DNA from: Asterionella formosa
Taxonomy: Eukaryota
Assembly: GCA_002256025.1 (NCBI GenBank)
Contig: NKIB01015360.1
Coordinates: forward strand, 1-36,350
DNA: 36,350 bases
Direction of reading: 5' to 3'
Part shown: one piece after another, positions 32,772 through 34,934 of the stretch
Numbering within the stretch: position 1 is the first letter of the stretch
Layout of the letters: every line of letters starts with the position of its first letter
Program-made: the position numbers and the translations under genes
The notes under the pieces: model-generated
Seen by the model: the letters and a program-made list of their open reading frames with translations, nothing else
The model's database searches: none
What the model was told of the DNA's origin: nothing

Positions 32772-34934
32772 TTATTTGCTCGATACAAATGGCCATTTTA
32801 GACTATTGAGACAGGGAATGCTGCTTTTGCATAGTGCAACAACTGTGATTGGCCCCTGGGTTTCAGGAATATTGCATCGGGCAGAATCAGCAAGTTTTTG
32901 TTCGGGACTTAAATAAAGCAAATATACCTTGCTAAACTTGATAAGCCATCCAGCCTCGTTACACATTGCTGTAAACTTTTCCAACACATTGTCAGGTTTG
33001 GAAGTATGTACCTGAACACCACACACAAATTGGCCAAACTTCCAGATCAGATCAATTGCAGGGAAATTGGAGTTTTCGGGCACATACATTCCATTTTTTT
33101 CCATGATTTTTGGCAACTGTTTTGAGGGAAAGGTTTCAATGAAATTGCAAATTTTCAAAGGCAAGAGCCTCTCGAAAGTAACATTTGCATTGATTGAACA
33201 GCGATTGATCACAATGAATTCAAAAATCTGACCACGAGCATCATTTGTCAAATCAGGGTTGGCACAGATATCTAAAAGTACTTGTTCGTGTTTATGAACA
33301 AAAGCCATAATTTCCTTCCAAAATAAGATTCGATAGCCTTCTAGCACCAAAGGAAACAAAGGCTTATAATGATTAGCCTCCTTCCCCTCAGCAGGAACTG
33401 AATATTCCATGTCATGTTGTATTACATCTCCTGTATTTGACAAAACGCAACCAACTGCAGATGCTGTGATATCATCCCATGTACATTTTGTTTTTTTGTC
33501 AGGCAAATTTTCAAGAGAACACAGAATTGAGTGTAATTCAGCCTCTTCATAGTCTTCAAAAGAAAACTTGTAGGAAATCAGTTTCCTAACCTGCAAGGGC
33601 ACCCCACCAGTTACCTCGAAGATATTTTCCTTGTCACTTCGTGTTTCCACTTCCTCAAAGGCTGCACATATTTCTTTCAAATCCATGTTACAAGGGTGAT
33701 TGTACTGCTCAAACCCTCGATGTCTTGCCTTGTAGGCAACCTCATTGTCTGTTGAAGCAGAGATGATGGATACAATGCGGCGGCCTCTCTTCATAATGTT
33801 GTTGATGGCACTAAAAGGAAAGGGAAGCGTACCCAGATCATCGGCTTTGTCTAGCACTGGTCGATAAAACAATCTGTTGACTTGATCGAAAACAAGGACC
33901 CATCTCCTGTCCATACGTCGAAGAATCAAGTCAATGGCTTTGACAAAATTATTCAGACTTACCAATTGTTCGTCCAAGTCTGAGCCGATCTGCCACATGA
34001 GAGCCGTTAATGTAGTACCAAATGAACTGCAGATTGCAGTGTACAAGTCGCCAACACATTCCCATCGATCACAGTCTGGAATAAAAGTAACGAGGTATTT
34101 GCAGCTGCTGTCATATTGCAGGGTACGAACCAAGTTGACACGTGAGTGCGACTTGCCAATTCCATGCGGTCCTTTGATCATGATTCCACCCCGACGATTT
34201 TTGTTGAAGGTATCGTCAACCACTTTCATCATTTCCTTCACAATTTTCGGGCGATACAAGATGCCCCTACTCTCGCCATCATCGAACCGCTCCGGTTGGA
34301 CGTCTTTCATCCAGTACCCATCTATGGGGGAAAAGGCAGATATAGTAGGATCAGAATTAAGCTCGTTCGGCTCAATCTTGTAGATATGCATTTTCTGTTC
34401 AATGCTCCGCTCCTTCTGTTCCTTCTTCAAGTGATCAAAGTAATCGTTGAGCTTCTCCTTGAGCAGCACTGATAAGGAGTCTTTGATCTGGTCACCACCT
34501 TGTTTCTGGCGCTTCGTCATTCTTTGGTCGTCCAAACAGTAGTGAGTAAGCGTCGGATAAATGACAAAATATGATGCGTGAGTGTTGCATGTCCAATACT
34601 TGTTTCAGCTGTGGAATAGTCTAGAATGGAATGCAAGGTATTCCATGAGATCAGAAAACGTACCAAAGTCAGGTGCGACCACAACAAACGTTGCAGATTC
34701 AACAACACGATCTCCAGGATTCAAGGCTGGAACATCAGCAACCGGCACTTGAGTTCCAGGTGGGTACACACGGAGCTGCGCAGCATCTATGGAACTTAGA
34801 CTATTTTCACATTTCTTCTTCACGGCATCCTTCAAGTCGGCAATCAAACTATCCTCATTCAAAGTGACAGAAGAGGGATTTAGTGCTGTGTGTCCAAGAA
34901 ACAACTGGAACCAAACCTTCGTTGTTGTCGACAT
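32772..34934 (-). CDS. Crinkler (CRN/CR)-type protein: ubiquitin-like N-terminal domain, P-loop NTPase and restriction-endonuclease-like C-terminus; exon 1 is 34934-34664, main exon starts at about 34531 or 34498
   Basis: N-terminal KVWFQL..IADLKDAVKKKCENSLSSIDAAQLRVYPPG..FVVVAP is the CRN header. Walker A IMIKGPHGIGKS; Walker B WVLVFDQ; TGGVPLQ. C-terminal RGQIFEFIV and YVPENSNFPAIDLIW..GVQVH. Donor G|GTACGT at 34663. Confidence 0.82.

What the first reader, a model, noticed from the sequence alone, without database searches (positions are those of the whole stretch)
32772..34934. Crinkler-type NTPase plus nuclease gene in an apparently photosynthetic, diatom-like genome
Seen: two ORFs listed separately in the track form one gene. 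One is a ubiquitin-like header with DLKDAVK..LRVYPPG..VVVAP (equivalent to the LxLFLAK/HVLVxxP motifs). The other carries Walker A/B and a C-terminal E..D..QxH nuclease-like motif. Established: CRN/CR proteins with Ubl+NTPase+REase architecture are effectors in oomycetes and chytrids and also occur in free-living eukaryotes. Inference: there is no signal peptide and TE relics flank the gene, so it may be an intracellular conflict or defence nuclease (against viruses, parasites or selfish DNA), or a mobile gene. It is the best candidate here for an uncharacterised system.
Basis: partly seen in the sequence, partly recalled or inferred. Interest (0 to 1): 0.72.

Follow-up and report, generated by a model that had tools for sequence, protein, structure and literature searches.

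The report
Crinkler-like ATPase gene in an alga
A spliced, expressed gene in a probably diatom-like freshwater alga joins a ubiquitin-like "Crinkler" head to an ATP-driven switch and a nuclease-like tail, a design best known from plant-pathogen effectors.

Summary
On the minus strand, ORF-A (34934..34605) and ORF-B (34535..32772) are in the same frame, separated by one TGA. RNA contigs from two lake metatranscriptomes of one study skip 34529-34663 (135 nt). That gives one open 675-aa reading frame. Three relatives carry the same head fused to the same ATPase in a single ORF.

The head models confidently as a beta-grasp fold (pLDDT 89.6), and every listed PDB match is a ubiquitin-like or Ras-association domain. 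Its own Pfam Crinkler score is just below the cut-off (22.9 against 24.6 bits). Of its 76 relatives, 15 reach the cut-off.

The tail has conserved E..D..QxH residues on an alpha-beta-beta-beta-alpha-beta order of elements. Its fold could not be searched alone, so "nuclease" remains inference.

Not supported: flanking TE relics. Not verified: a photosynthetic or diatom origin.

Caveat: the window's own intron ends in CG, while a variant contig has AG.

Verdict: a new member of the known Crinkler-RHS-type class, in a lineage where two model diatoms were reported to have none.

The parts
34664..34934 (-). Exon 1: start codon ATG at 34934-34932. It encodes residues 1-90 plus the first base of codon 91. 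This is the ubiquitin-like (beta-grasp) Crinkler-type head, ending in FVVVAPDF.
   Evidence: ORF and sequence. AlphaFold model pLDDT 89.6 with element order E4-13, E21-26, H31-41, E55-57, E82-87. All listed Foldseek PDB matches are ubiquitin, Ubl or RA domains, best E 7.5e-4, TMq up to 0.66. Pfam PF20147 E 1.5e-4, 22.9 bits against a cut-off of 24.6.
34529..34663 (-). Intron of 135 nt, phase 1, GTACGT...GGACG in the window. It contains the in-frame TGA at 34607-34605. The 3' end is CG in the window and AG in a variant RNA contig.
   Evidence: Joint 34528 to 34664 in one contig each of X1 (depth 58.2, 35 letters on the shorter side) and X4 (depth 7.5). The plus-strand G>T at 34530 in X6 makes AG on the minus strand. 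Unspliced contigs also exist (X4 records 13 and 14, X6 record 31).
32772..34528 (-). Exon 2, residues 91-675 and the TAA stop at 32774-32772. It holds a basic and helical linker, the NTPase, a helical region and the REase-like tail.
   Evidence: ORF. The joined frame is open. 111 homologues, best 69% identity. Model pLDDT 89.1, pTM 0.86.
33531..34283 (-). P-loop NTPase core (ORF-B residues about 85-335). Walker A is at 34172..34149, Walker B at 33902..33882, and the conserved ISASxxNE is at residues 258-265.
33261..33530 (-). Helical region after the NTPase (ORF-B residues about 336-425). It follows the invariant-Pro 'TGGVPL' motif (P313) and corresponds to the helical or winged-helix part of ORC/STAND proteins.
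   Evidence: P313 is invariant in 75 of 75. Helices H302-309 to H417-424. Alignments to 2qen_A (model 84..403), 2fna_B (82..402) and Avs3 (76..405) run through it.
32811..33260 (-). C-terminal alpha/beta domain (ORF-B residues about 426-575) with E439, D495, Q508 and H510. It is restriction-endonuclease-like by motif and element order, but the fold was not confirmed.
   Evidence: Conservation. DSSP: H431-448 holds E439, E482-486, E496-500 starts right after D495, E503-509 holds Q508 with H510 next, then H518-528 and E536-543. Atlas feature neighbours of residues 400-587 are unnamed clusters commonest in Oomycota (0.95), Euglenozoa (0.94, and one with RHSP in 14% of members) and Mucoromycota (0.92). 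No nuclease family in Pfam or NCBIfam at E up to 10.

Best explanation
The locus is one two-exon gene for a 675-residue cytoplasmic or nuclear protein of the Crinkler-RHS (CR) type. It has four parts. A ubiquitin-like head (residues 1-90) comes first. A short basic and helical linker follows. Next is an ORC/Cdc6-STAND-type P-loop NTPase with its helical module. Last is a C-terminal alpha/beta domain carrying a restriction-endonuclease-like E...D...QxH constellation. Shown: the splice, the beta-grasp head, the NTPase fold and motifs, expression in lake communities, a large family of relatives, and the same head on other C-termini. Inferred: the NTPase acts as a nucleotide-driven switch that controls the tail domain, as proposed for CR NTPase+REase proteins and as in STAND immune ATPases. 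Also inferred: the tail cuts or binds nucleic acid, and the protein acts inside the alga's own cell in a conflict with viruses, parasites or selfish DNA rather than as a secreted effector.
For: Splice: RNA joint skipping 34529-34663 in X1 and X4, and an open 675-codon frame. Relatives P0114, P0217 and P0110 carry head and NTPase in one ORF. The junction PDIDQGATKRQKQ in P0114 matches the spliced PDFDQRMTKRQKQ here. Head: pLDDT 89.6, beta-grasp element order, and only Ubl or RA domains among the listed PDB hits. 76 relatives at E<=1e-3; PF20147 matches 35 of 76 at E<=0.01 and 15 of 76 at or above the Pfam cut-off. NTPase: motif conservation, and fold matches to mS29, ORC/Cdc6, CED-4/Apaf-1, plant NLRs, Avs3, TnsC and BrxC. 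Tail: near-invariant E, D, Q and H placed on helix, strand start and strand as in PD-(D/E)xK enzymes. Atlas neighbours come from Oomycota, Euglenozoa (one cluster with RHSP in 14% of members) and Mucoromycota, lineages named for CRN, RHS or CRN-like proteins in the papers read. Among the whole-protein neighbours is a 725-aa Mucoromycota cluster with PF20147 in 88% of members (score 0.93), and an archaeal cluster with ATPase_2 (31%) plus Hjc (10%). Modularity: the same head precedes other P-loop NTPases (P0121, P0127, P0173, P0185; P0185 also has a chromo domain), a membrane protein (P0156) and a repeat protein (P0112, P0113). The architecture Ubl + NTPase + HTH + REase is the commonest one described for Phytophthora CRNs (review PMC5289972, passages and section 11 read).
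Against: The window's own head scores below the Pfam Crinkler cut-off (22.9 against 24.6 bits). No nuclease family is found by sequence in Pfam, NCBIfam, PADLOC or PDB. The canonical catalytic Lys is His and the acid before it is Gln. Three fold searches of the 587-residue model were filled by the NTPase, with most rows spanning residues 40-405, so the tail's fold was not compared with anything. Only 1 of 115 predicted proteins of the NTPase family carries the head, and 0 of 75 match PF20147. Many of these are fragments or gene calls that ignore introns. The spliced contigs differ from the window at 34668, and the window's acceptor is CG. Both spliced contigs come from one study. Atlas scores are leads, not alignments.
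Confidence: 0.6

Rival explanations
1. The C-terminal domain is not an active nuclease. With Gln and His in place of (D/E)xK, it is a binding, sensing or oligomerisation module. The protein is then a STAND/ORC-like switch or scaffold, and its output, if any, lies elsewhere.
Against: Four polar residues are near-invariant at the positions where PD-(D/E)xK enzymes hold their metal ligands and general base. Such conservation is more typical of a catalytic site. The Atlas neighbours of the tail come from lineages where the papers read describe CRN, RHS or CRN-like proteins.
Confidence: 0.22
2. In the exact allele of the window the intron is not removed efficiently, because its 3' end is CG. This copy would then yield a head-only peptide that stops at the intronic TGA. 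It might also yield a headless NTPase-tail protein from the internal ATG at 34520. The copy would be a hypomorph or a decaying copy.
For: The window reads CG at 34530-34529. The X6 contig reads AG there. An unspliced X4 contig keeps CG. Every RNA contig covering 34668 differs from the window there, so no spliced contig is shown to come from this allele. The proteins P0115 and P0218 from other assemblies are the unspliced reading with the same intronic tail.
Against: The spliced X4 contig shares the window's base at 34505, where the unspliced X4 contig differs. Exon 2 is fully open and 58-69% identical to intact relatives. Contigs cannot show which acceptor dinucleotide the spliced molecules had.
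Confidence: 0.25
3. It is an exported effector, like oomycete CRNs. The alga would deliver it into competitors, grazers or parasites by an unconventional route that depends on the head.
For: Oomycete CRN heads are reported to mediate delivery, and Zhang et al. are reported to have ruled out classical signal peptides there too (review PMC5289972, section 11).
Against: There is no hydrophobic N-terminal segment. The same NTPase-tail body occurs with SAM, coiled-coil or acidic N-termini, and the head occurs in tandem copies. Both fit intracellular adaptor roles better. No delivery apparatus is known or was tested.
Confidence: 0.1
4. It is part of a mobile element, a transposon-derived NTPase plus nuclease that spreads as a selfish gene.
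Against: There are no terminal repeats and no TE protein domains around the gene. It has a spliceosomal intron and ordinary cellular neighbours. TnsC and MuB rank below mS29, ORC and the NLRs.
Confidence: 0.05

Closest known systems
Oomycete Crinkler (CRN) / CR proteins with Ubl header + NTPase + HTH + REase (Zhang et al. 2016, known here only through the review PMC5289972 and through PMC11064341 and PMC6131194)
   Same: Same order of parts. The beta-grasp head has an LxLFLAK-position motif (LRVYPPG) and a terminal HVLVxxP-position motif (FVVVAPD). A P-loop NTPase, a helical region and an alpha/beta tail with acidic and polar residues follow. The head is recombined onto many C-termini.
   Different: No detectable sequence similarity of the body to named CRNs was obtained here. 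The head is sub-threshold for PF20147. The tail has QxH instead of (D/E)xK. The head/body boundary is a spliceosomal intron. The host is apparently a free-living alga and not a pathogen.
CRN-like proteins of Rhizophagus irregularis / Mucoromycota (PMC6131194)
   Same: The nearest Atlas feature clusters of the whole ORF-B are Mucoromycota proteins of 547-725 aa (scores 0.99, 0.99 and 0.93). One cluster has PF20147 in 88% of members. The paper describes NTPase4 and REase5, 6 and 8 domains in these fungi.
   Different: The similarity rests on language-model features only, with no alignment or E-value. Some of the fungal proteins have predicted signal peptides.
mS29/DAP3, ORC/Cdc6 and the archaeal ATPase_2 AAA+ proteins (2fna, 2qen)
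   Different: Those proteins lack the Ubl head and the C-terminal E..D..QxH domain. mS29 is a ribosomal protein.
STAND immune ATPases with effector domains (plant NLR resistosomes, CED-4/Apaf-1, bacterial Avs3)
   Different: No repeat-type sensor domain (LRR, TPR or WD40) is present. Membership in STAND proper was not established. No PADLOC model matches.
AACRNL, a Crinkler-like ADP-ribosyltransferase of free-living animals (PMC12957317)
   Same: It is a CR-type protein kept and expressed in non-pathogens, and it is interpreted as acting inside its own host genome's conflicts.
   Different: Its effector is an ART domain and its Ubl head is degenerate. Here the head is well formed and the body is an NTPase plus a nuclease-like tail.

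Membership tests
CR (Crinkler-RHS-type) proteins | N-terminal header with a ubiquitin-like (beta-grasp) fold | tested here: met
   Model pLDDT 89.6, element order beta-beta-alpha-beta-beta. All listed Foldseek PDB hits are ubiquitin, Ubl or RA domains.
CR (Crinkler-RHS-type) proteins | Sequence membership of the header in Pfam PF20147 (Crinkler N-terminal domain) | tested here: inconclusive
   Own score 22.9 bits, E 1.5e-4, cut-off 24.6. Of 76 phmmer relatives, 35 match at E<=0.01 and 15 reach the cut-off, the best at 103 bits. The only rival families are other Ubl families.
CR (Crinkler-RHS-type) proteins | One header type recombined onto diverse C-terminal domains | tested here: met
   The same head sits on this NTPase (window, P0114, P0217, P0110), on other P-loop NTPases (P0121, P0127, P0173, P0176, P0185), on a chromo domain (P0185), on a membrane protein (P0156) and on a repeat protein (P0112, P0113).
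CR (Crinkler-RHS-type) proteins | C-terminal P-loop NTPase coupled to a REase-superfamily domain (the commonest CR body) | tested here: inconclusive
   NTPase: met. REase: only motif placement and element order.
CR (Crinkler-RHS-type) proteins | Delivery into another organism's cells | not testable with these tools
   No hydrophobic N-terminal segment. No experiment.
ORC/Cdc6-STAND-like AAA+ P-loop NTPases | Walker A GxxxxGK[ST], a Walker B acid after a hydrophobic strand, and the matching fold with a following helical module | tested here: met
PD-(D/E)xK (restriction-endonuclease-like) nucleases | Core alpha-beta-beta-beta-alpha-beta fold | tested here: inconclusive
   The DSSP order H431-448, E482-486, E496-500, E503-509, H518-528, E536-543 at pLDDT about 90-97 fits. 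The three fold searches barely tested residues beyond 405.
PD-(D/E)xK (restriction-endonuclease-like) nucleases | Catalytic D ... (D/E)-x-K | tested here: not met
   The family has D495 ... Q508-x-H510. Q is in 71 of 75 and H in 74 of 75. I therefore call the tail REase-like and do not file it as a canonical member.

The most novel reading that the evidence does not exclude
Diatom-like algae keep a large, expressed family of intracellular immune-type proteins. In these, a STAND/ORC-like NTPase gates a variant (QxH) nuclease. The Crinkler-type ubiquitin-like head is a separate exon that is shuffled among many such bodies. On this reading, CRN 'effectors' of oomycetes would be a secreted offshoot of an older stramenopile self-defence or abortive-infection toolkit used against viruses and against chytrid or oomycete parasites.
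Probability: 0.2. Interest if true: 0.75.

Novelty: new member of a known kind. Interest (0 to 1): 0.45.

Why it matters
Crinkler proteins are mostly studied as weapons of plant and animal pathogens. An early census listed 0 CRNs in the diatoms Thalassiosira pseudonana and Phaeodactylum tricornutum, against 19-196 in three Phytophthora species and 26 in Pythium ultimum (PMC2926784, Table 2).

Here a well-formed Crinkler-type head sits on an NTPase plus a nuclease-like body. The organism appears to be a free-living freshwater alga. The gene is transcribed in natural lake communities and has over a hundred relatives.

If the origin is confirmed, this gives a non-pathogen system in the oomycetes' sister lineage for asking what the head and the NTPase-nuclease body do inside their own cell. 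It would also allow a test of whether they respond to the viruses, chytrids and oomycetes that control algal blooms.

My four literature searches found no report of CR proteins in diatoms. The founding survey (Zhang et al. 2016) and its supplements could not be read and may already list such algae.

Tried and rejected
1. My first two hand-drawn introns were wrong: donor 34663 with acceptor 34499, and donor 34659 with acceptor 34522. The RNA joint is 34664 to 34528.

2. No whole genome is held for the window, so paralogue counts and genome-wide TE association could not be done.

3. Viral contigs: 468 pattern matches, 0 relatives.

The single-protein scan gave one locus, L001. This is a high-GC bacterial contig where the match lies in an unrelated frame, so it is a chance hit.

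5. Prokaryote genome contigs: one 2-kb contig of a Rubrobacter MAG, 24% identity over residues 5-130. Not followed up.

6. A search restricted to the tail (residues 400-587) found only 13 members of the same family.

7. hhalign of the family profile against the head-bearing P0121 gave probability 2.6%, which is nothing.

8. PADLOC found no match. Pfam and NCBIfam on the tail alone at E up to 10 found no nuclease family. PDB by sequence or profile found only mS29.

9. Fold searches of the whole ORF-B model (Foldseek PDB, VIA-align wide, BFVD) listed only AAA+/STAND proteins and barely tested residues beyond 405. This says nothing about the tail's fold.

10. I tested for a conserved intron after the head by looking for splice-donor read-through dipeptides after the VVAP-like motif. 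The result was 24 of 41, against 21 of 41 in the control stretch before the motif. That is no signal, so the claim is dropped. All that remains is that 37 of 41 such ORFs end within 75 residues after the motif. Contig ends could also cause this.

11. A Chou-Fasman profile of the tail was only a crude stand-in and was superseded by the model.

12. Earlier findings of this scan: nothing on this genome, this sequence or these words.

13. Cluster look-up gave no organism names.
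Full report
**What is in the sequence**

On the minus strand there are two ORFs. ORF-A runs from the ATG at 34934 to a TGA at 34607-34605; the listed ORF begins further upstream at a TTG at 34976. ORF-B runs from 34535 to 32772 and is 587 aa long. The two share one reading frame and are separated only by that TGA.

ORF-A reads MSTTTKVWFQLF...IADLKDAVKKK...LRVYPPG...FVVVAPDF, and a GTACGT follows directly. 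ORF-B carries GPHGIGKS (Walker A) and WVLVFDQ (Walker B). Near its end it has FEF...FPAID...GVQVH.

**One gene or two**

Ten RNA libraries from lake and freshwater samples hold parts of the stretch. I laid four of them, all as assembled contigs.

- One contig in X1 (depth 58.2) and one in X4 (depth 7.5) join 34664 to 34528, skipping 135 nt. Both runs belong to the same study.
- On the coding strand the skipped piece starts with GT.
- Joining the exons at that point gives a 2028-nt frame with no internal stop, which is 675 codons plus the stop.
- The junction reads ...VVVAPDF|DQRMTKRQKQ...

Protein data give independent support.

- P0114 and P0217 are relatives from another collection. They have the same head running straight into the same NTPase in one ORF, with the junction ...VVIQPDIDQGATKRQKQ....
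- P0110 is a more distant fused relative.
- P0116 shows the unspliced reading of a paralogue, broken at the same place (PDIGTCFDLMEY...).
- P0115 and P0218 are the unspliced reading of this very gene in other assemblies.

Caveats on the splice:

- The window's intron ends in CG. An unspliced X6 contig has AG there.
- All RNA contigs covering 34668 differ from the window at that base.
- Unspliced contigs are present as well.
- The locus is therefore spliced in the population. Whether this exact allele is spliced is open.

**The head**

The 90-residue head was modelled with 55 of its 76 relatives. The model has pLDDT 89.6, with strands at 4-13, 21-26, 55-57 and 82-87 and a helix at 31-41. Every listed Foldseek PDB match is ubiquitin, a ubiquitin-like domain or a Ras-association domain. 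The best has E 7.5e-4, and TMq reaches 0.66.

Pfam's Crinkler N-terminal model matches the window's head at E 1.5e-4 with 22.9 bits. The curated cut-off is 24.6, so the match is just below it. A full phmmer search of 1.84 billion representatives found 76 relatives at E<=1e-3. Of these, 35 match PF20147 at E<=0.01 and 15 reach the cut-off. The only competing families are other ubiquitin-like ones.

The head is modular.

- It stands in tandem copies in P0120, P0121, P0127, P0153, P0162 and P0217.
- It precedes other P-loop NTPases in P0121, P0127, P0173, P0176 and P0185. P0185 also carries a chromo domain.
- It precedes a membrane protein (P0156) and a repeat protein (P0112, P0113).

In the RNA libraries, many contigs at least 95% alike pile up on 34675-34998 and diverge at 34741, 34781 and 34940. 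This fits a segment shared by several transcripts, although summed contig depth is not a copy number.

**The body**

ORF-B has 111 relatives at E<=1e-3. The best is 69% identical, and most are 30-40% identical and 550-680 aa long. One is named, from the diatom Amphora coffeaeformis. I aligned the window protein with the 74 longer relatives and left out 37 shorter or partial ones.

Conservation in that alignment:

| Residue (ORF-B numbering) | Kept in |
|---|---|
| K128 | 74 of 75 |
| D217 | 72 of 75 |
| Q218 | 69 of 75 |
| E439 | 69 of 75 |
| D495 | 72 of 75 |
| Q508 | 71 of 75 |
| H510 | 74 of 75 |

The model of ORF-B has pLDDT 89.1 and pTM 0.86.

Residues about 40-405 match the following:

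| Match | Score |
|---|---|
| Archaeal AAA+ ATPases 2fna and 2qen | Foldseek E about 2e-6 |

Pfam and NCBIfam see only sub-threshold AAA_16, AAA_22, ATPase_2, nSTAND5, NACHT and orc1/cdc6 matches.

Other family members carry different N-termini: SAM domains (P0076), a coiled coil (P0013) or an acidic stretch (P0073). Only 1 of 115 predicted family proteins carries the head.

**The tail**

In the model, E439 lies in helix 431-448. D495 lies just before strand 496-500. Q508 lies in strand 503-509, with H510 next to it. Helix 518-528 and strand 536-543 follow. This is the order of elements and the residue placement of PD-(D/E)xK nucleases. The difference is Gln-x-His where those enzymes have (Asp/Glu)-x-Lys.

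No sequence model calls the tail a nuclease. The three fold searches of the whole model were filled by the NTPase and barely tested residues beyond 405.

The Atlas gives leads only.

- The tail's nearest feature clusters are commonest in Oomycota (0.95), Euglenozoa (0.94, and one cluster with RHSP in 14% of members) and Mucoromycota (0.92).
- The whole ORF-B lies nearest to Mucoromycota clusters (0.99). One further Mucoromycota cluster (score 0.93) has the Crinkler head in 88% of members.
- An archaeal cluster has ATPase_2 in 31% and Hjc in 10% of members.
- CRN, RHS or CRN-like proteins are described in these three eukaryotic groups in the papers read.

**Surroundings**

Pfam on 9 large ORFs and 60 smaller ones found a GT92 glycosyltransferase, a PCC domain protein, a two-exon sybindin gene, an EF-hand protein and a 2OG-Fe(II) oxygenase with a ShK piece. 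A weak GDSL-lipase match was also found. No TE protein and no photosynthesis protein turned up. Repeats near the gene are trivial.

**Mechanism**

Shown: a spliced, expressed gene with three parts, which are a Ubl head, an ORC/STAND-like NTPase with intact Walker motifs, and a conserved polar constellation on an alpha/beta tail.

Inferred, from the model proposed for CR proteins (review PMC5289972, section 11 read) and from the behaviour of STAND ATPases: nucleotide binding or hydrolysis gates the tail, the tail acts on nucleic acid, and the head mediates targeting or partner binding. There is no signal-peptide-like segment, and the head occurs in tandem and on chromatin-type partners. I therefore favour an intracellular role in conflict with viruses, parasites or selfish DNA.

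**Comparison and novelty**

The architecture equals the commonest Phytophthora CRN design, Ubl + NTPase + HTH + REase. It differs in four ways: the QxH tail, a spliceosomal intron at the head/body boundary, a lack of detectable body similarity to named CRNs, and the apparent host.

CR proteins in free-living eukaryotes are already known. An early census counted 0 CRNs in two model diatoms. My four literature searches found no report for diatoms. Zhang et al. 2016 and its supplements were not available to me and may cover such algae.

I file this as a new member of a known kind, with moderate interest.

Noticed in passing
window 11857-11906, 15928, 20950-20975, 23482-23509, 24071, 28575, 28717, 34938-35027, 35218-35244, 35436-35462: The palindromic motif GGTACCWGGTA (up to 1 mismatch) gives 30 matches against 0.58 expected, and 0 of 100 shuffles reach 30. 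Because the motif is palindromic this is about half as many sites. All clusters are intergenic, and several lie just upstream of gene starts, including the 5' leader and upstream region of this gene and the region upstream of the GT92 gene. It is a candidate promoter or leader element, or a dispersed short repeat.
   Followed up: partly
window 34675-34998 (head exon) and 33865-33945, 34108-34188: In all four RNA libraries the summed contig depth over the head exon is far above that of the body (for example 5876-6987 against about 163 in X1). Contigs diverge at 34741, 34781 and 34940. Smaller peaks sit on the Walker A and Walker B regions. This suggests that many related transcripts share these segments.
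   Followed up: partly
window 34529-34530: Polymorphism at the intron's 3' end: CG in the window and in an unspliced X4 contig, AG in an X6 contig.
   Followed up: partly
P0217 (relative): This relative has two nearly identical copies of the head plus linker in tandem ahead of the NTPase. It could be a real tandem-head gene, a read-through of neighbouring genes, or an assembly chimera.
   Followed up: no
window 11934-12540 (+): A sybindin/TRAPP subunit gene in two exons. Pfam PF04099 is split over two ORFs, at 35.6 and 80.2 bits.
   Followed up: no
L002 725-1108: A 2-kb contig of a Rubrobacter MAG encodes a stretch 24% identical to ORF-B residues 5-130, E 1e-5 among the candidates. It is either a distant prokaryotic relative of the NTPase or a mis-binned eukaryotic fragment.
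   Followed up: no
window 24718-25954 (+): A ShK-domain piece (22.6 bits) lies just upstream of a 2OG-Fe(II) oxygenase ORF (54.1 bits). They are probably exons of one prolyl-hydroxylase-like gene.
   Followed up: no
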